From a virus (lineage: Duplodnaviria; Heunggongvirae; Uroviricota; Caudoviricetes): a DNA stretch of 9,751 nt. Below, one piece after another: positions 1-9,751 of this stretch (positions within the stretch are counted from its first letter, which is position 1; every line of letters starts with the position of its first letter). The stretch is from the IMG/VR virus record IMGVR_UViG_2802429241_000003; one strand, 5' to 3'. The notes under the pieces are model-generated. The model searched no databases. It saw nothing but the letters and a program-made list of their open reading frames with translations, and had not been told where the DNA came from. The translations under genes and the position numbers were made by a program.

Positions 1-69
1 CGCTCGGTTTCGGGTATAACCTTAGGAAATTTTTTCCCACCTGTAAAGCACTTTTTATATAAATCTATA
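1..69. repeat. Terminal redundancy: 1-69 is identical to 9683-9751, consistent with a circular or circularly permuted 9682-bp unit
   Basis: Direct comparison of the first 69 bases (cgctcggtttcgggtataacc...ataaatctata) with the last 69 bases of the window: identical. Confidence 0.9.
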
Positions 70-88
70 ATTATATATTTATAGATTT
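57..88. repeat. AT-rich palindromic repeat AAATCTATAA-N8-TTATAGATTT; contains the reverse complement of the 16-bp unit TTATAGATTTATATAA found beside parA
   Basis: 61-70 aaatctataa is the reverse complement of 79-88 ttatagattt; 55-70 ttatataaatctataa is the reverse complement of ttatagatttatataa at 3818-3833 and 4607-4622. Confidence 0.55.
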
Positions 89-124: not shown

Positions 125-139
125 TCAAAATGACACTTT
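125..139. promoter_or_regulatory. 15-bp half-site copy (tcaaaatgacacttt) of the 27-bp palindrome at 9235-9261, immediately after the Q-like gene stop
   Basis: Exact 15-bp identity between 125-139 and 9244-9258; function inferred only from reuse of the motif. Confidence 0.3.
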
Positions 140-516
140 CACTCTCTTCTCTTTTTCAAGTAGTCGACAACATACGTCCTGGCTTTTGCCAGCTTCCGGC
201 GATACTGTCTGAGACTAAGAGAAAGGGCGTGGGCTTTATCAATATGCGGTGCATTTATGTCGAGGCCCCGAATCTCCCACGCCCCGTATTCAATTCGGAC
301 AACCAGCGCCGCAGTCTCATCAACTACCGTGAGGGCCGTCACCGCTCCCTCGATACTGGTTTCCAGTGAGTCATTTGGTGCGCCGCCCCCTCCGGTAAAC
401 TGGCAGCGCGTAACCATCATCATTTCTAACATCGACGCGAAACCGCTACGGGCGTTGCAGCCATTGCGCACCCACAGCGCCCATAGCTCAAACAAGCTAT
501 CCAGATCGCGTCTCAC
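139..516 (-). CDS. Short Q-like late-gene antiterminator candidate (resembles the ~125-aa Q homologues of lambdoid prophages); begins with GTG
   Basis: 125-aa ORF at the distal end of a nin-like operon. The N-terminus (FELWALWVRNG) resembles the LERWGAWAANN-type start I recall for short prophage Q proteins. SD-like GGGAGA sits about 9 nt upstream of the GTG. Family assignment is from memory and unverified. Confidence 0.5.
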   Translation of the reverse strand: MRRDLDSLFELWALWVRNGCNARSGFASMLEMMMVTRCQFTGGGGAPNDSLETSIEGAVTALTVVDETAALVVRIEYGAWEIRGLDINAPHIDKAHALSLSLRQYRRKLAKARTYVVDYLKKRRE

Positions 517-2489: not shown

Positions 2490-2508
2490 TTAACGAACTC
2501 CAGTTAAA

Positions 2509-2626
2509 ACCACGATATGTGGTATTAAAACCACATATCGTGAGTTTTTCAATGGGCGAAACAAAAAATAACCTTCTATTTGTGGTCCACCTCTCGTCTT
2601 ACCATGTGAAAACCACTAAATGTGGT
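2509..2626. promoter_or_regulatory. Immunity-region operators and divergent promoters: ACCAC-N5-GTGGT at 2509-2523, a degenerate copy at 2529-2543, and a third site at 2612-2626
   Basis: Perfect palindromes accacgatatgtggt and accactaaatgtggt plus half-degenerate accacatatcgtgag. On the minus strand a candidate promoter TTGAAA-17-TTTAAT overlaps the 2509-2543 sites; TATAAA at 2631-2636 lies upstream of the repressor start. Confidence 0.6.
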
Positions 2627-3344: not shown

Positions 3345-3362
3345 ATTTCTACGCTCAAAAAA

Positions 3363-3377
3363 ACCACATTTTGTGGT
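3363..3377. promoter_or_regulatory. Fourth operator copy (accacattttgtggt) between the repressor gene and the downstream 124-aa gene
   Basis: Perfect ACCAC-N5-GTGGT palindrome; TTGACA at 3382-3387 lies adjacent. Confidence 0.5.
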
Positions 3378-3412
3378 TTTGACAACATGTAAAAGTATAA
3401 AAGAGGCTACGC

Positions 3413-3792: not shown

Positions 3793-3822
3793 AGCGGGCT
3801 AACGCCCGCTTATATGATTATA
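3793..3822 (+). terminator. Candidate intrinsic terminator after the 124-aa gene
   Basis: Hairpin agcgggc-taac-gcccgct (7-bp stem) followed by an interrupted U-rich tract (ttatatgattat). Confidence 0.45.
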
Positions 3823-3915
3823 GATTTATATAATTATATAAAACACTTTTCATCCGCCAAAAAGTTGGTTATGCTTACCTCATTCTATAAATATAGATTT
3901 ATAGAATTATATAAT
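3811..3915. repeat. Centromere/operator-like AT-rich repeats upstream of parA (two copies of the TTATAGATTTATATAA unit)
   Basis: 3818-3833 ttatagatttatataa; 3892-3915 variant atatagatttatagaattatataa. Same unit recurs at 4607-4622 and, inverted, at 55-70. Confidence 0.5.
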
Positions 3916-4591: not shown

Positions 4592-4622
4592 TATATAATT
4601 ATAGTTTTATAGATTTATATAA
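4591..4622. repeat. Repeat copy between parA and the parG-like gene
   Basis: 4607-4622 ttatagatttatataa, identical to the unit at 3818-3833 and followed directly by the parG-like SD. Confidence 0.5.
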
Positions 4623-5104: not shown

Positions 5105-5128
5105 TAAAAAAGGCCCCCGAAGGGGCCT
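5105..5128 (-). terminator. Intrinsic terminator for the minus-strand small ORF
   Basis: On the minus strand: hairpin ggcccc-ttcg-ggggcc (7 bp with the flanking A-T pair) followed by TTTTTT (5105-5110); on the plus strand the hairpin lacks a downstream U-tract. Confidence 0.6.
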
Positions 5129-5133
5129 AATCG

Positions 5134-5256
5134 CTACTTGCTGCTAATGTTTATCGTCACATTCAGAGCGTTATCAGTAATCTTCCAACCCTCCCCATGT
5201 GGCGTAAACAAAGCTCCAGTAACAACGATAAAAATACACATACAGTATTTTTTCAT
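5134..5256 (-). CDS. 40-aa small hydrophobic protein, candidate type I toxin (MKKYCMCIFIVVTGALFTPHGEGWKITDNALNVTINISSK)
   Basis: Internal ATG of the 60-aa track ORF with AAGGG SD about 8 nt upstream; hydrophobic N-terminal stretch; strong terminator immediately after the stop; candidate -10 TATAAT (minus strand, 5411-5416) about 150 nt upstream. Confidence 0.35.
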   Translation of the reverse strand: MKKYCMCIFIVVTGALFTPHGEGWKITDNALNVTINISSK

Positions 5257-5320
5257 TGTATGGCCCTTACAGGCCGTTTCACGGCATCCCCACCGACGAA
5301 AATGACGCGAGAGCAAGCAC

Positions 5321-5340
5321 GCTGTTTGTGCCTGCGTGGT
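5321..5340. repeat. Copy A of a 20-bp direct repeat (gctgtttgtgcctgcgtggt); lies in the predicted 5' leader of the small-ORF mRNA, where it is read as its complement
   Basis: 19 of 20 identity with 5570-5589; flanking sequence shows a diverged duplication of about 80 bp (ctgaaag and gcgaatc shared). Confidence 0.6.
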
Positions 5341-5569
5341 ACGGCAAGTGGATAATCCTTTCCTGAAAGTCGGTGCCCGGTTGCGAATCGGCGAAAAGGC
5401 CCCAAGCCATATTATACGTCATCCCCTTCATAATGAAGGAATAAAAAACGCTTTTATTACATAGAATTACACGTAAATAAGTTAAAAACCTTCATTTTGC
5501 ATGAGCTAATGAGCTAAATTTTTTATATGAATAGTGGACTATTCACCTAAATTGGGTAAGAATGTAGTT

Positions 5570-5672
5570 GCTGTTTGTGCTTGCGTGGTTGTATTAGTAC
5601 AACGACGTTATGCTGAAAGGACCGCGAATCCGATCGGCACGAAAGAACCGTCCTCAATAGGGCGGTTTTTTT
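5570..5672 (+). ncRNA. Candidate antisense small RNA (about 100 nt) beginning with repeat copy B and ending at an intrinsic terminator
   Basis: Copy B gctgtttgtgcttgcgtggt at 5570-5589; internal hairpin gttgta-ttag-tacaac; terminator ccgtcct-caat-agggcgg plus T7 at 5648-5672. A weak candidate promoter TGGACT-17-AAGAAT at 5535-5563 would start transcription near 5570. The 5' end is not established. Confidence 0.3.
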
Positions 5673-5676
5673 GTTT

Positions 5677-6222
5677 CTACCACCGCCCTATTGATTCAAG
5701 TATTAATGAAGGTGAATCATTTGAATTATTCGATTTTGCACCGTTATCGACCCAATCTCTGTATGCTTCATCACAACAGTACCTTACAGCAGTTGGAATA
5801 ACAGGGATGCCGCCCCCAAATGAGAACCCCATTGAGCTTATGCTAATTCTGTCGGATGGCCTATTTCTCAATGCTTCAAATCCCTTGCTGTTGAAGTAAC
5901 TCAGCATCAGAGGCAAAAGGTTATCCTCGTCCTGACTGATTGTTCCAGGGAAAAAGTAGTAACCATAGCGATTAAATTCGGGGATCAGTTTTTCTACCAA
6001 CAACATGAAATTCATTGGGCTAATATTAAGGGCTGTGCAAGCACCAAAAAGGGCATCAACTGTTAATACAGACTGCCCGTTCTCTATCTTTGTCCATGCG
6101 TTTGGTGTTTTTCCGGCAGCTTGAGCCAGCACTCCTTGATGCACACCTCTTTCTAGCCTAAGCTCTTTTATGATCATTAGGTGGATTGTTGAAAAACATG
6201 AGTTTTTTGACGGATCAGACAT
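5677..6222 (-). CDS. HTH_XRE-domain protein with a C-terminal domain of unknown function (181 aa)
   Basis: ATG at 6222 with GGAG 7 nt upstream; N-terminal IIKELRLERGVHQGVLAQAAGKTPNAWTKIENGQS is a Cro/C1-type HTH; stop lies inside an 11-bp inverted repeat (5655-5665 and 5683-5693). Confidence 0.6.
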   Translation of the reverse strand: MSDPSKNSCFSTIHLMIIKELRLERGVHQGVLAQAAGKTPNAWTKIENGQSVLTVDALFGACTALNISPMNFMLLVEKLIPEFNRYGYYFFPGTISQDEDNLLPLMLSYFNSKGFEALRNRPSDRISISSMGFSFGGGIPVIPTAVRYCCDEAYRDWVDNGAKSNNSNDSPSLILESIGRW

Positions 6223-6406: not shown

Positions 6407-6505
6407 ATGCGCCATTGGTGGACACTTTCCGAGCCGTAGCAAAATCTACGGTCGGGATTGGCGTCCCGATTGCACAATGGCGCATACCGCGTTAGCGGTT
6501 TTTTT
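6407..6505 (+). ncRNA. Structured element: 11-bp long-range stem enclosing two adjacent 6-bp hairpins, followed at once by an intrinsic terminator; candidate leader/attenuator or small RNA
   Basis: Outer stem 6407-6417 aatgcgccattg pairs with 6475-6485 caatggcgcat; hairpins ccgtag-caaaat-ctacgg and tcggga-ttggcg-tcccga; terminator accgc-gtta-gcggt plus T7 (6486-6505). TTGACA at 6397-6402 lies just upstream. Confidence 0.3.
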
Positions 6506-6607
6506 ATGCGTAAAGCACTGCTACACCCAAATTATGGTGGGGCGTGCGGGGGCGGAGAAATCCGCGCCGGGTTTGTCATTGTGCCGGTTACGCCAACCCT
6601 GTACGTC

Positions 6608-6641
6608 TCACCACCATATTGATTGGCGTCATTGGTGGTGA
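6608..6641. promoter_or_regulatory. Inverted repeat TCACCACCA-N16-TGGTGGTGA in the promoter region of the antirepressor-like operon
   Basis: 9-bp perfect arms at 6608-6616 and 6633-6641; a third ATTGGTGG half-site at 6414-6421; lies 27-60 bp upstream of the ATG at 6668. Confidence 0.4.
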
Positions 6642-6667: not shown

Positions 6668-6859
6668 ATGACAAACCTACCCCATGACTATTACGTCAAC
6701 CTCGTAAAGATCCTTCTCAAGAAAGCCTCATACGCCGATAAATTCCGCCTGGCTGAAATCATAGAGCGCGAAGCTATGCGCATCGCCAGCAACGATAACG
6801 CTGTTTCTGACGCAAAAATCTCCCTCGTAACCAAAGTAGTTATGGGAGGTGCAAAATGA
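6668..6859 (+). CDS. Hypothetical small protein (63 aa), translationally coupled to the downstream antirepressor-like gene
   Basis: ATG at 6668 with GGAGA SD 8 nt upstream; stop TGA overlaps the ATG of the next gene (ATGA at 6856-6859). Confidence 0.45.
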   Translation: MTNLPHDYYVNLVKILLKKASYADKFRLAEIIEREAMRIASNDNAVSDAKISLVTKVVMGGAK

Positions 6860-8124
6860 AAACGCTTCCGACCGTTAACACCCTACAGCCTATCCTGCAT
6901 AACCAAATCCCTGTCATTACTACCGAGTTACTGGCACAGCTTTACGGCGTATCTCCTGTACGCATTCGACAAAATCATCATGAGAATAAGGAACGCTTCA
7001 TTGAAGGTAAGCACTACTTCAAAATTGAAGGTAACGAACTTCGAGAGTTAAAGCACAAAGTGACTCAAGATAATGATGTGAAGAACAAAAACTCTTTAAG
7101 AGATTCAGTTAATGACGCCCCCTCTAAAAGAGAGAGCGTCGAGCACAGAGTAGTTTTAAACTACTCTGTTAACCACAAGGTAACTAAAAGTCACTCTGTG
7201 AAAATCGCCCGTAACGTTCGCTCCCTCATTCTCTGGACAGAACGCGGGGCTGCACGTCACGCTAAAATGCTCGAAACTAACCAAGCGTGGGATGTGTTCG
7301 AACGGCTGGAAGACTGCTACTTCAACCAGAACGCGCAAACGGCCGCGACCGTTACCGTCTCGCCAAACAATGCTCGTGAGGTTGTCGATACGCTCAACGC
7401 CAAACCGATGTTTTACATTAAGGTGTGCAACAACGAGCCACTCACAACCTCAGCCGATGTTGCCCAGGCATTCAGCACCACAAACAATTCCATCGTTATG
7501 GCCATCGATGCGCTACGCATTCCTCGCACGGCTGCGGCACGTCATTTCTTTAAAGAGCAACGACCGCTGGAAGGAAGCGACCGCGAAATAACAATCTATC
7601 GCATGACAAAAGACGGATTTACCTTGCTCATGGAAAGTATCGACGGTCCAGGCGTGAAGGATATCAAGCTGGCCTACATTGAAGCCTTTAACGCTATCAG
7701 CAGCGTGTTAAAAACACAGTACGAGCGCGATCTGGCTAAACGACTGTACCAGGAAAAAACGATTATCCGCGCGGCAACAGAGCATAATCGGCTATTAACG
7801 GAACCGAACTACAGGAAGGAACTAATCAAGGAGTTTGACAAGGCAACAGGGAAAACCAAAGCGACGCTAAATCTGCCAGCAATGACTCAGGAAAATGTGA
7901 TATCAGCCTTACTTCTTGATCTGCTCAGAAACGCCAGAGCACTTATCAGCTTTGACGAAAACCTGAATCCTCAGCTCAAGCTACTACCACCGACAGGCAA
8001 AGTAGTCGACCAAGCTGATCACAACAGCATACTCAGCGTTCTGGATGCAAACCTGCCAGCCAGGACACTACAGGATCTGATAAAAACATGTGCTGATAAG
8101 CTGGCACAGAAAAGCAGACCATAA
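6856..8124 (+). CDS. Antirepressor-like phage regulatory protein: N-terminal ORF6N-like domain, central Rha-like domain, unassigned C-terminal region
   Basis: 422 aa. N-terminal ITTELLAQLYGVSPVRIRQNHHENKERF...ILWTERGAARHAKMLETNQAWDVFERLEDCYF resembles ORF6N; central RMTKDGFTLLMESIDGPGVKDIKLAYIEAFNAI resembles the Rha family (TRDGF..L.M.F.G.....K..YI.AFN). Strong GGGAGG SD 6 nt upstream. Confidence 0.75.
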   Translation: MKTLPTVNTLQPILHNQIPVITTELLAQLYGVSPVRIRQNHHENKERFIEGKHYFKIEGNELRELKHKVTQDNDVKNKNSLRDSVNDAPSKRESVEHRVVLNYSVNHKVTKSHSVKIARNVRSLILWTERGAARHAKMLETNQAWDVFERLEDCYFNQNAQTAATVTVSPNNAREVVDTLNAKPMFYIKVCNNEPLTTSADVAQAFSTTNNSIVMAIDALRIPRTAAARHFFKEQRPLEGSDREITIYRMTKDGFTLLMESIDGPGVKDIKLAYIEAFNAISSVLKTQYERDLAKRLYQEKTIIRAATEHNRLLTEPNYRKELIKEFDKATGKTKATLNLPAMTQENVISALLLDLLRNARALISFDENLNPQLKLLPPTGKVVDQADHNSILSVLDANLPARTLQDLIKTCADKLAQKSRP

Positions 8125-8374: not shown

Positions 8375-8861
8375 ATACAGGGTGCCCTTTACCGGAGTTC
8401 CGGCCCCTTCTCAAAAGCATCAAAAAAAGCTCGAGATCGAGTACCGGAACTCATGCCACCAGATAGCTCCACATCGTTTCCAATGCTTCGCCGCCGTGTG
8501 CGCCCTGTGGCCCACAATCATGCCATTGGTCGTCTGATATACCTTCTTCTGCTCATAGAGCACAGGCGAGTTGTCGCACTCCTGCCTTTCTCAGACTCGA
8601 CTTAGTTTAGATCGCTGTTCCTGGCTTGCGTCAGCACACTTTCCCCTTGTACGCATACCCGCGCGCCACTTCGCCCAAAAACACCGAACCCAACGAAGTG
8701 GCAAAGACAACGACACGAGCGTGAGTCTGAAATGGGCACCAGTAAAAAAGGGGTTGCAGGCGCAAAAAGATTTGATTATCTTTAGACGCAAGAAAGCCGC
8801 CCCAATCAAGAGGTGTCTTTTTAAATCCAGCCTACCAAGCAAGATTTAAATTTCAGACTGA

Positions 8862-8890
8862 AAACCGCCCGGCAAGGCGGTTTTTGTCTT
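8862..8890. terminator. Bidirectional intrinsic terminator (ends the HTH gene operon on the minus strand and any rightward transcript on the plus strand)
   Basis: aaaccgcc-cggcaa-ggcggttt hairpin with a T-run on the plus side (8881-8885) and, in reverse complement, a U-tract on the minus side. Confidence 0.65.
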
Positions 8891-8933: not shown

Positions 8934-9206
8934 TCATTTGATCCCTTGTTCCAATTCTGACGACACTTTAACCTTTTCCCATACAAGGGTTTGCAGCCTT
9001 AACAGAATCGCGTCTTTATCAAGGTGTGAAAGATCCTTCACCATATCGTCAAACGACAGAACGCGAATGGCCATCTCAATGACCCTCGGCGGCTCCCCCT
9101 TCTCATATCGCTTATATGTAGCCAACGATATCCCAAATTCTTCGGCGGCTCGCTCCTGCGTCCAGTTCATCCCACGACGCCATAATTTCAATTCATAACC
9201 CGTCAT
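8934..9206 (-). CDS. XRE-type HTH DNA-binding protein (90 aa), antitoxin-like or autoregulator-like
   Basis: ATG at 9206 preceded by GAGGAGGG SD; LKLWRRGMNWTQERAAEEFGISLATYKRYEKGEPPRVIEMAIRVL fits an XRE HTH; the track's longer version starts at a TTG inside the palindrome. Confidence 0.6.
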   Translation of the reverse strand: MTGYELKLWRRGMNWTQERAAEEFGISLATYKRYEKGEPPRVIEMAIRVLSFDDMVKDLSHLDKDAILLRLQTLVWEKVKVSSELEQGIK

Positions 9207-9234
9207 AGCACCCTCCTCGCACAATATTAACACT

Positions 9235-9261
9235 CGCAAAGTGTCAAAATGACACTTTGCG
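9235..9261. promoter_or_regulatory. Perfect 27-bp palindrome CGCAAAGTGTCA-AAA-TGACACTTTGCG between the 126-aa gene and the HTH gene; candidate operator overlapping a TTGACA -35 on the minus strand
   Basis: 12-bp perfect arms; minus-strand TTGACA at 9242-9247; lies about 30 bp upstream of the HTH gene ATG. Confidence 0.5.
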
Positions 9262-9269
9262 CATTGTGT

Positions 9270-9650
9270 TTACTTAACGAGGAATAAAAATGGTTTATTG
9301 TTCGGCGGTGTAATCGGGGCTGGCTCGCTTTTGCTCATGCGATCAGTGTACCAGGCCAACTCCTTGTCAAAGTAAGCCTGATTAAAATAGGCCATGAATG
9401 TAGTTTCAAATCCATAACGACCGCTAATACGCAGCATCTGATTGCCGTTCTCTGTTTCCAGATATACCTGGGCACGTTCCTGATTCTCCTTCAGCCAGGT
9501 TAAAGCCTCATCGCATGAGGACACACGATACTCATCATCGTAGCAGTCATCGATGCGGCTTGAGGAAGAACGGCAAATCACGCCAACAGAACCAGCCAGG
9601 ATAGTTTGAATTTTAAGGAAAGCGTTTTTGCGGATTTTAATCATGCTCAT
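9270..9650 (-). CDS. Hypothetical protein (126 aa), first gene of the two-gene cassette
   Basis: ATG at 9650 with GGAGA SD 8 nt upstream; no recognisable motif; followed by the palindrome and the HTH gene. Confidence 0.5.
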   Translation of the reverse strand: MSMIKIRKNAFLKIQTILAGSVGVICRSSSSRIDDCYDDEYRVSSCDEALTWLKENQERAQVYLETENGNQMLRISGRYGFETTFMAYFNQAYFDKELAWYTDRMSKSEPAPITPPNNKPFLFLVK

Positions 9651-9682
9651 CGGGTTATCTCCGGTTTAACCAGAGCGGGTAT

Positions 9683-9751
9683 CGCTCGGTTTCGGGTATA
9701 ACCTTAGGAAATTTTTTCCCACCTGTAAAGCACTTTTTATATAAATCTATA
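9683..9751. repeat. Second copy of the terminal redundancy (identical to 1-69)
   Basis: Base-by-base identity with 1-69. Confidence 0.9.

What the first reader, a model, noticed from the sequence alone, without database searches (positions are those of the whole stretch)
8934..9650. Two-gene cassette (126-aa unknown plus XRE HTH) with a perfect 27-bp palindrome, in the position where late genes normally follow Q
Layout is unknown protein first, small HTH regulator second, with a perfect 12-N3-12 palindrome overlapping a consensus TTGACA in front of the HTH gene; this resembles toxin-antitoxin or autoregulated regulator modules. On the circular map the cassette lies directly downstream of the Q-like gene, where lambdoid phages place Q-dependent late genes. 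A 15-bp half-site copy of the palindrome also sits right at the Q-like stop (125-139).
Basis: partly seen in the sequence, partly recalled or inferred. Interest (0 to 1): 0.55.

Follow-up and report, generated by a model that had tools for sequence, protein, structure and literature searches.

The report
Self-regulated HTH gene pair in phage-plasmid
This is an accessory two-gene unit of a common ~48-kb E. coli phage-plasmid: a small DNA-binding regulator that most likely represses its own promoter through a conserved palindrome, preceded by an uncharacterised 126-aa gene; it shows no sign of being a toxin-antitoxin pair, and its position next to the Q-like gene comes from the way the window closes on itself.

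Summary
The sequence features are real. They are a 126-aa ORF (9650..9270, -), a perfect 12-N3-12 palindrome (9235-9261), a 90-aa XRE HTH gene (9206..8934, -) and an exact 15-bp copy of part of the palindrome at 125-139.

The window is a 9.68-kb piece of ~48-kb Escherichia/Salmonella/Klebsiella/Yersinia phage-plasmids. It closes on itself through a ~115-bp promoter/leader repeat that occurs three times in complete genomes. None of 62 matching plasmid records places the cassette after the Q-like gene. There, higBA precedes it and a DUF3560 operon follows Q.

The cassette does carry one copy of the same promoter/leader that follows Q and that precedes the structural genes. The Q-like protein models as a Q21-type fold.

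The palindrome lies 2 nt upstream of a conserved extended -10 (TGnTAAWAT). It keeps its symmetry through changes in both arms in three clades. Similar palindromes precede homologous HTH genes in IncI1, IncFII and IncL/M plasmids. Best reading: an autoregulatory operator.

The 126-aa protein has no Pfam, NCBIfam or PADLOC family and no known fold. It stays intact where the HTH gene is disrupted, so the toxin-antitoxin reading is not supported. This is an ordinary kind of module; the interest is modest.

The parts
9270..9650 (-). 126-aa protein gene. It belongs to an uncharacterised family (PHROG 8090) with an alpha/beta N-domain of about 100 aa, a Pro/acidic linker and a short hydrophobic tail (LFLV).
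   Evidence: ORF. phrog_8090 at 6e-89. No Pfam, NCBIfam or PADLOC hit. 39 representatives in a profile search. AF2 pLDDT 77, no fold match.
9235..9261 (.). Perfect 12-N3-12 palindrome. Proposed operator of the HTH protein. On read-through RNA it also forms a 12-bp hairpin (-16.9 kcal/mol).
   Evidence: Conserved with changes in both arms in three clades. Folding.
9224..9232 (-). Conserved extended -10 promoter element TGTTAATAT (TGnTAAWAT in relatives). Predicted transcription start near 9217-9218.
   Evidence: Alignment A3 and the variants. Read from the sequence; no transcript data.
9211..9216 (-). Shine-Dalgarno sequence GGAGGG of the HTH gene. In the long transcript it is predicted to pair with the last codons of the 126-aa ORF.
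   Evidence: The flank duplex gives p=0.005 in the window and 0.04 in L006, and is not significant in L004/L020.
8934..9206 (-). 90-aa XRE-family HTH protein gene.
   Evidence: HTH_3 at 6e-7 and HTH_31 at 3.6e-6. phrog_6962. RstR-family hit at 2.6e-8, below cut-off. Weak match to the MqsA HTH domain 3fmy. Homologues in 3782 plasmid records.
8859..8886 (.). G+C-rich hairpin with T runs on both sides. Likely the terminator that closes the cassette, shared with the convergent + strand unit.
   Evidence: The same element is called on the cassette strand in L003 (17113-17086).
9647..9751 (-). Copy 1 of the ~115-bp repeated promoter/leader, cut by the window end. It contains TTTACA (9729..9724), a 17-nt spacer holding GGAAA-N3-TTTCC, TAAGGT (9706..9701) and a leader of about 45 nt ending at the ATG of the 126-aa gene.
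   Evidence: Hexamers read from the sequence.
1..83 (-). Copy 2 of the same repeat (its upstream part). In complete genomes it lies after the Q-like gene and heads the DUF3560/lysis operon.
125..139 (-). Exact 15-bp copy of the left arm, spacer and first 3 nt of the right arm (AAAGTGTCATTTTGA), abutting the Q-like stop codon. It is present in the E. coli/Yersinia clade and absent from the Salmonella clade.
139..516 (-). Q-like gene (125 aa). Context only, not part of the cassette.

Best explanation
The cassette is an accessory unit in the plasmid-maintenance and immunity region of a ~48-kb myovirus-type phage-plasmid.

The second gene encodes a small XRE-family dimeric repressor. It is transcribed from its own extended -10 promoter (TGTTAATAT, 9232..9224). 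The 27-bp palindrome lies at about -44 to -18 relative to the predicted start. The HTH protein binds it and blocks RNA polymerase, which gives negative autoregulation (inferred).

The first gene (126 aa, biochemical function unknown) is transcribed separately. Its promoter is one of three near-identical ~115-bp promoter/leader copies. The other two head the lysis operon and the packaging/structural operon, and one of them directly follows a Q21-type antiterminator-like gene. The 126-aa gene is therefore probably co-regulated with late genes (inferred).

On that longer transcript the palindrome forms a hairpin. The flanks can pair the HTH ribosome-binding site with the end of the 126-aa ORF. 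Read-through would then yield HTH protein only in step with translation of the upstream gene (speculative).

The 15-bp copy after the Q-like stop may be a weak extra HTH site, or it may be a recombination scar.
For: Shown by tools:
- HTH domain.
- The palindrome is perfect here. In the Salmonella clade it is GTGGAAAGTATCA-ATT-TGATACTTTCCAC. In the K. aerogenes clade it is GCTCAAAGTGTCA-AAT-TGACACTTTGAGC. It is always 2 nt from TGnTAAWAT.
- The HTH segment GISLATYKRYEKG is invariant in these clades, matching the invariant core AAAGTRTCA.
- Homologous HTH genes have AAA.TG..CA.TTT-type palindromes just upstream: IncI1 (AAAGTGAA-N5-TTCACTTT), IncFII (two 12-N1-12 sites) and IncL/M (AAAATGTTCA-N4-TGAACATTTT).
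- The two genes are paired in all 24 loci of the close family, counting two loci where the HTH gene is disrupted (L007, L022) and one where the contig end cuts it (L013), and they diverge together (65% and 70% identity).
- The repeat is present three times, in the same orientation, each copy ending at an ATG, in E. coli and Salmonella genomes.
- Terminator-like sites lie inside the other two units, before the holin gene and before the ParB-family/packaging genes.
- The Q-like model matches Q21 and AlpA.
- Distant members of the 126-aa family also lie within 1.5 kb of a small XRE-like HTH gene.
Against: - There is no binding, transcript or expression data; every regulatory step is inferred.
- The outer 3-4 positions of the arms differ between clades yet stay complementary. 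This is explained more easily by selection for a hairpin, or by palindrome self-templating, than by protein contacts.
- One-arm changes are mostly G.U-compatible on the sense strand (about 6 events against 2, not significant).
- In five loci a 575-bp insertion separates the palindrome and -10 from the HTH gene. The palindrome therefore stays with the 3' end of the 126-aa gene rather than with the HTH start.
- The -10 of the repeat promoter is weak (TAAGGT), and the scan tool does not call it in the window.
- The Q21 match is a moderate fold score, not proof of function.
Confidence: 0.55

Rival explanations
1. Toxin-antitoxin module with the toxin first, as in mqsRA or higBA. The 126-aa protein would be a growth-inhibiting toxin. 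The HTH protein would be its antitoxin, with its own internal promoter and operator.
For: - Gene order, sizes and strict pairing in the close family.
- The HTH region is most similar, though weakly, to the MqsA HTH domain.
- Predicted masking of the ribosome-binding site suggests coupled translation.
- Distant family members also neighbour small HTH genes.
- The cassette lies in a maintenance region beside higBA and parA.
Against: - No toxin, TA or defence family hit.
- The operator lies in front of the second gene, not in front of the operon.
- The first gene uses the phage late-type promoter copy.
- The 126-aa gene is intact where the HTH gene is truncated by IS110 (L007; its 126-aa homologue P0004 stands for 22 member sequences) or frameshifted (L022).
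- A 575-bp insertion splits the pair in five loci.
- In Vibrio phages the family occurs as a 225-aa protein among early genes, and no HTH domain was detected in the adjacent genes.
Confidence: 0.1
2. The palindrome acts mainly at the RNA level. It would be a hairpin at the 3' end of the 126-aa message that works as an attenuator, pause site or stabiliser. It would insulate the HTH gene from the late-type promoter unless RNA polymerase has been made terminator-resistant by the Q-like protein. It would not be a protein-binding site.
For: - A 12-13-bp stem of -16.9 kcal/mol (z = -7).
- Outer stem positions co-vary between clades (5 pairs changed on both sides and kept).
- One-arm changes lean towards G.U on the sense strand.
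- The hairpin stays with the 126-aa gene in the insertion variants.
- The other two repeat-headed units also contain terminators before their distal genes.
Against: - No U-tract follows the stem on the sense strand. The terminator scan calls the site only on the + (antisense) strand.
- The fixed 2-nt spacing to a conserved extended -10, and the analogous palindromes upstream of homologous HTH genes that have no upstream ORF (IncI1), fit an operator better.
- The G.U bias is not significant.
- The two roles are not exclusive.
Confidence: 0.2
3. The HTH protein is a regulator of the phage-plasmid life cycle. It would control late transcription through the palindrome and through the 15-bp copy next to the Q-like stop, rather than only regulating itself.
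For: - The exact 15-mer is unlikely by chance.
- It is the only other AAAGTGTCA in the 48-kb genome.
- It lies between the Q-like gene and late-promoter copy 2.
Against: - It is only a half-site: the other arm matches 6 of 12 positions.
- It lies about 77 bp upstream of the -35.
- It is absent from the Salmonella clade, where another gene follows Q and the palindrome is otherwise conserved.
- HTH-disrupted variants persist.
Confidence: 0.1

Closest known systems
Small autoregulated XRE/Cro-type repressors of mobile elements (for example CTXphi RstR and the HTH domain of MqsA)
   Same: - N-terminal XRE HTH: HTH_3 at 6e-7, RstR family at 2.6e-8, MqsA HTH at 0.06.
- Small size, and a palindromic site beside its own promoter.
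   Different: - All scores are below the curated family cut-offs.
- The C-terminal 40 residues are unrelated.
- The operator is a long 12-N3-12 palindrome placed between two genes.
- No binding data exist.
Uncharacterised HTH regulators of conjugative-plasmid leading and maintenance regions (IncI1 between nikA and ardA, IncL/M, IncFII)
   Same: - 32-53% identity over nearly the full length.
- Analogous AAA.TG..CA.TTT palindromes directly upstream.
   Different: - The neighbours differ: an Mrr_cat nuclease in IncL/M, and no 126-aa family member nearby.
- None of them has been characterised either.
Lambdoid Q cassette (Q gene, PR', sigma-dependent pause element, terminator, late genes), Q21 type
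   Same: - The Q-like gene is followed by a promoter-like repeat, and then by operons with internal terminators before the lysis and packaging genes.
- The layout follows the description in bioRxiv 10.1101/651190.
   Different: - There are three dispersed, near-identical promoter/leader copies instead of one.
- One of them heads this non-late-looking cassette.
- No Q-binding element or pause element could be identified.
- There is no sequence-level family hit for the Q-like protein.
Type II toxin-antitoxin modules with the toxin first (higBA, mqsRA)
   Same: - Two small genes with the HTH protein second.
- A palindrome and an internal promoter for the second gene.
   Different: - The first protein has no toxin family or fold.
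- The operator is not upstream of the operon.
- The pair can be split or lose the HTH gene.

Membership tests
XRE-family HTH transcriptional regulator (Pfam HTH_3 / HTH_31) | Sequence match to the HTH_3 or HTH_31 profile above the gathering score | tested here: met
   HTH_3 scores 29.8 bits against a cut-off of 23. HTH_31 scores 27.6 against 27.
XRE-family HTH transcriptional regulator (Pfam HTH_3 / HTH_31) | Sequence-specific binding to a (pseudo)palindromic operator | not testable with these tools
   Comparative support only: a conserved palindrome next to a conserved -10, and analogous palindromes upstream of homologues.
RstR family repressor (NF041951) | Score above the NCBIfam cut-off (80 bits) | tested here: not met
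   34.1 bits, E = 2.6e-8, covering only the HTH region.
Type II toxin-antitoxin system | The first protein belongs to a known toxin family or fold | tested here: not met
   [not shown]
Type II toxin-antitoxin system | The toxin gene is not maintained without a functional antitoxin gene | tested here: not met
   L007 has the HTH gene truncated by IS110 and L022 has it frameshifted. Both keep an intact 126-aa ORF. L022 is a low-coverage metagenome contig.
Type II toxin-antitoxin system | Growth inhibition by the toxin, relieved by the antitoxin through a protein complex | not testable with these tools
   This needs expression and rescue assays.
Type II toxin-antitoxin system | The operon promoter is autoregulated by the antitoxin or by the complex | tested here: inconclusive
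   The palindrome lies in front of the second gene only. The first gene has a different, repeated promoter.
Q-dependent late transcription unit (lambdoid, Q21 type) | Q-family antiterminator encoded upstream | tested here: inconclusive
   [not shown]
Q-dependent late transcription unit (lambdoid, Q21 type) | The unit lies directly downstream of the Q gene | tested here: not met
   This adjacency exists only in the self-closed window. None of 62 plasmid records shows it. In complete genomes higBA precedes the cassette.
Q-dependent late transcription unit (lambdoid, Q21 type) | Promoter with a Q-binding element and a sigma-dependent pause element, followed by a terminator | tested here: inconclusive
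   The cassette shares its promoter/leader with the copy that follows Q. A hairpin and a terminator follow. No Q-binding element or pause element could be recognised.

The most novel reading that the evidence does not exclude
A single Q21-type antiterminator serves three dispersed, concertedly evolving copies of one ~115-bp promoter/leader. Each copy also carries the TTATAGATTTATATAA motif that clusters around the parA operon. One copy drives this cassette. In this reading the palindrome is both the HTH operator and a hairpin that only Q-modified polymerase reads through. The lytic switch would then raise the 126-aa protein and, through coupled translation, the HTH regulator. The 126-aa family, spread in phage-plasmids, plasmids and Vibrio phages, would be a new late or establishment factor that works together with small HTH proteins.
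Probability: 0.12. Interest if true: 0.55.

Novelty: new member of a known kind. Interest (0 to 1): 0.3.

Why it matters
These ~48-kb phage-plasmids are common in E. coli: 62 complete plasmids in PLSDB, including one in the reference strain ATCC 25922. They are almost entirely annotated as hypothetical.

Three points have practical value:
- The HTH and palindrome pair is assigned as a self-regulated regulator.
- The Q adjacency is shown to be a repeat-collapse artefact, which prevents a wrong toxin-antitoxin or late-gene annotation.
- The broader lead is a thrice-repeated promoter/leader tied to a Q21-like protein and to a motif that clusters around the parA (partition) operon. It could explain how such elements coordinate plasmid-state silencing with late transcription.

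The cassette on its own is a routine kind of regulatory module.

Tried and rejected
- **TTGACA as the -35 of the HTH promoter.** Rejected. It lies 12 nt from the only conserved -10, and the promoter scan finds nothing.
- **Sense-strand intrinsic terminator.** Not supported. There is no U-tract, and the scan calls the site only on the antisense strand.
- **N-terminal lipoprotein or signal sequence on the 126-aa protein.** Rejected. The Cys is not conserved.
- **CI-type operators in the repeat or the palindrome.** None found (ACCAC..GTGGT).
- **Assignment to the pSLy3 phage-plasmid group.** Wrong. That group is SSU5-related (PMC7969092).
- **Literature on the Yersinia phages vB_YpM_39, 41 and 44.** Nothing is held.
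- **Direct similarity between the window HTH and the HTH-like neighbours of distant family members.** Only marginal (E about 0.3).
- **126-aa family members next to HTH homologues in IncI1, IncL/M or IncFII plasmids.** None found.
- **Masking of the ribosome-binding site by the ORF end.** Significant in two clades but not in the Salmonella clade. I keep it as speculative.

Full report
**1. What is in the sequence**

On the - strand the region holds four elements:
- A 126-aa ORF (9650..9270).
- A perfect palindrome, CGCAAAGTGTCA-N3-TGACACTTTGCG (9235-9261).
- An ORF ending at 8934 with an XRE-type helix-turn-helix (Pfam HTH_3 at 6e-7).
- A G+C-rich hairpin with flanking T runs (8859-8886).

The mechanical ORF for the second gene starts at TTG 9239. 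The conserved start is ATG 9206 (90 aa), preceded by GGAGGG. This is the start annotated in RefSeq. Upstream of it, relatives carry an 8-nt indel that breaks the longer frame.

It is unlikely by chance. It is the only other AAAGTGTCA in a complete 48-kb relative.

**2. Where the window comes from, and the 'circular map'**

The window matches a contiguous stretch of ~48-kb non-mobilizable plasmids at 96-99% identity. The hosts are Escherichia, one Klebsiella and three more divergent Salmonella records. It also matches three Yersinia myophages.

These elements are phage-plasmids. They carry an IncFII-type repA, parA and higBA, together with terminase, portal, capsid, a contractile tail and lysis genes.

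The window's first 69 bases equal its last 69. Both ends lie inside a ~115-bp repeat. In complete genomes this repeat occurs three times, in the same orientation, and each copy ends at the ATG of a gene:
- Copy 1 is upstream of the 126-aa gene.
- Copy 2 lies between the Q-like stop and a DUF3560 gene that opens the operon ending in holin and lysozyme.
- Copy 3 is upstream of the operon leading to the ParB-family genes, terminase and the structural genes.

The divergent Salmonella plasmid pAR-0407-1 has the same three copies. They are 96-97% identical to each other but differ from the E. coli version, so the copies evolve in concert.

A query spanning the window's Q-like to 126-aa junction is covered in one piece in 0 of 62 plasmid records. 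Every listed record holds the repeat in three places.

In real replicons higBA and its terminator precede the cassette. repA lies outside the window. The 9.68-kb circle is therefore either an assembly cycle through the repeat or a non-replicating recombination product. Its Q adjacency is not a property of the element.

**3. The Q-like gene and the repeat**

The repeat reads as follows:
- An AT-rich tract.
- TTTACA, then a 17-nt spacer, then TAAGGT (TATGGT in Salmonella).
- GGAAA-N3-TTTCC inside the spacer.
- A leader of about 45 nt running up to the ATG.

The units headed by copies 2 and 3 contain strong terminator-like sites before the holin gene and before the packaging genes. This fits antitermination control.

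I could not identify a Q-binding element or a pause element. The link between the Q-like protein and the repeat is therefore an inference. What is shown is narrower: the cassette shares its promoter/leader with the two late-type operons.

**4. The palindrome**

Across 24 loci of the close family the palindrome is always present. Three clades keep the symmetry with different sequences:

| Clade | Palindrome |
|---|---|
| Window | CGCAAAGTGTCA-TTT-TGACACTTTGCG |
| Salmonella | GTGGAAAGTATCA-ATT-TGATACTTTCCAC |
| K. aerogenes | GCTCAAAGTGTCA-AAT-TGACACTTTGAGC |

These are shown. RNAalifold counts 5 pairs changed on both sides and kept.

The palindrome always ends 2 nt before a conserved extended -10 (TGTTAATAT, TGATAAAAT or TGTTAAAAT). 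It lies only 12 nt from this -10, so it is not a usable -35, and the promoter scan finds no classical promoter. With the start predicted near 9217, the palindrome covers about -44 to -18, which is a repressing position.

The HTH segment GISLATYKRYEKG is invariant in the three clades, as is the core AAAGTRTCA.

Homologous HTH genes (32-53% identity) are very common in conjugative plasmids: 3782 records. The ones I inspected have analogous palindromes just upstream:
- IncI1: AAAGTGAA-N5-TTCACTTT.
- IncL/M: AAAATGTTCA-N4-TGAACATTTT.
- IncFII: two 12-N1-12 sites.

Together this makes an autoregulatory operator the best reading.

**5. An RNA role cannot be excluded**

On a read-through transcript the palindrome is a hairpin of -16.9 kcal/mol. 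In the minimum-energy folds of all three clades, the last codons of the 126-aa ORF pair with the HTH ribosome-binding site. A flank-only test is significant in the window (p=0.005) and in K. aerogenes (0.04). It is not significant in Salmonella.

The outer stem positions co-vary. One-arm changes lean towards G.U on the sense strand, at about 6 events against 2, which is not significant.

There is no U-tract on the sense strand.

In five loci a 575-bp insertion sits immediately after the -10. It carries a 141-aa membrane-protein gene on the opposite strand. The palindrome stays with the 126-aa gene there.

**6. The 126-aa protein**

The protein has no hit in Pfam, NCBIfam or PADLOC. Its only assignment is PHROG 8090, of unknown function.

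Close relatives are confined to these phage-plasmids. An exhaustive profile search finds 39 representatives in marine gammaproteobacteria, Vibrio phages and a Vibrio phage-plasmid. The family shares three parts:
- An N-domain of about 100 aa (IRKNAxKKI..DDSxD..WL..G.Y.F..F.AYF).
- A variable acidic or Pro-rich linker.
- A short hydrophobic tail.

Distant members lie near another small XRE-like HTH family, a 76-aa KfrB-like protein and a convergent Rha-type antirepressor. An association with small HTH proteins therefore seems old, but it is not obligatory.

**7. Toxin-antitoxin test**

The defining features I could test are not met:
- There is no toxin family or fold.
- The operator is in front of the second gene only.
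- The first gene has a separate, repeated promoter.
- The pair is split by an insertion in five loci.
- The 126-aa ORF is intact where the HTH gene is cut by IS110 (L007) or frameshifted (L022).

Toxicity itself needs an experiment.

**8. The 15-bp copy**

It is real but specific to one clade. It is present in E. coli and Yersinia genomes. It is absent from the Salmonella plasmid, where another gene follows Q. It is a half-site lying about 77 bp upstream of the -35 of copy 2. A weak HTH site and a recombination scar are both possible.

**9. Verdict**

The autoregulation idea is supported by comparison. The toxin-antitoxin idea and the 'after Q' position are not supported.

The cassette is a new member of a known kind: a self-regulated XRE regulator with a partner of unknown function. 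The more unusual feature is the thrice-repeated promoter/leader shared with the late operons.

Noticed in passing
window 55-70, 3818-3841, 3891-3914, 4607-4622; L003 and L010 genome-wide: The 16-mer TTATAGATTTATATAA (8-bp unit TTATAKAW) is dispersed. It gives 13 hits in L003 against 0.05 expected, and 16 hits in Salmonella L010. It clusters around the small-ParA operon and sits directly upstream of the -35 of each of the three repeated promoter copies. It may be the site of the partition or centromere-binding protein, linking partition to silencing of the late promoters.
   Followed up: partly
window 1-83 and 9647-9751; L003 16210-16330, 25915-26018, 32531-32648; L010 17613-17727, 26747-26848, 35017-35121: The ~115-bp promoter/leader repeat is present three times per genome. 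Copies within a genome are 96-97% identical but differ between E. coli and Salmonella elements, which indicates concerted evolution. Many short-read contigs break at this repeat.
   Followed up: partly
window 6420-6618 (+): Rfam matches C4 antisense RNA (72 bits), isrK (67 bits) and, just below its gathering score (41.7 bits against 46.7), the c4 a1/b1 target. All lie upstream of the ORF6N/Rha antirepressor gene (6856-8124). This looks like a P1/P7 immI-type antisense control of ant.
   Followed up: no
window 5106-5404 (-): Full-length match to ryfA RNA (136 bits, E = 1.4e-35) between the par genes and the 181-aa XRE gene.
   Followed up: no
window 2506-2547, 2611-2628, 3360-3380: ACCAC..GTGGT palindromes lie between the divergent CI-like (S24 peptidase) gene and the Cro-like gene, with one more just after the CI-like gene. 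They are probably the immunity operators and are unrelated to the cassette palindrome.
   Followed up: no
L019 2925-3500 (also L016, L029, L030, L031): A 575-bp, low-G+C insertion carries a 141-aa predicted membrane-protein gene on the opposite strand. It sits exactly between the -10 and the HTH gene, which marks this spot as a site of cargo insertion.
   Followed up: partly
window 7145-7169 and 5654-5694: Two further perfect inverted repeats. One is 12-N1-12 inside the ORF6N/Rha gene. The other is 13-N15-13 spanning the stop codon of the 181-aa XRE gene.
   Followed up: no
L009 2785-4543, L008 2915-3124: In marine relatives, several small genes (the 126-aa family member and a 133-aa gene) are each preceded by the same upstream sequence, which translates as ...RTKSPIIYLEGRARCQGQNRDN. 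This is another case of a repeated promoter/leader in front of accessory genes.
   Followed up: no
window 58-88: A near-perfect 28-bp AT-rich palindrome (AAATCTATAA..TTATAGATTT) is found only in the repeat copy that follows the Q-like gene.
   Followed up: no
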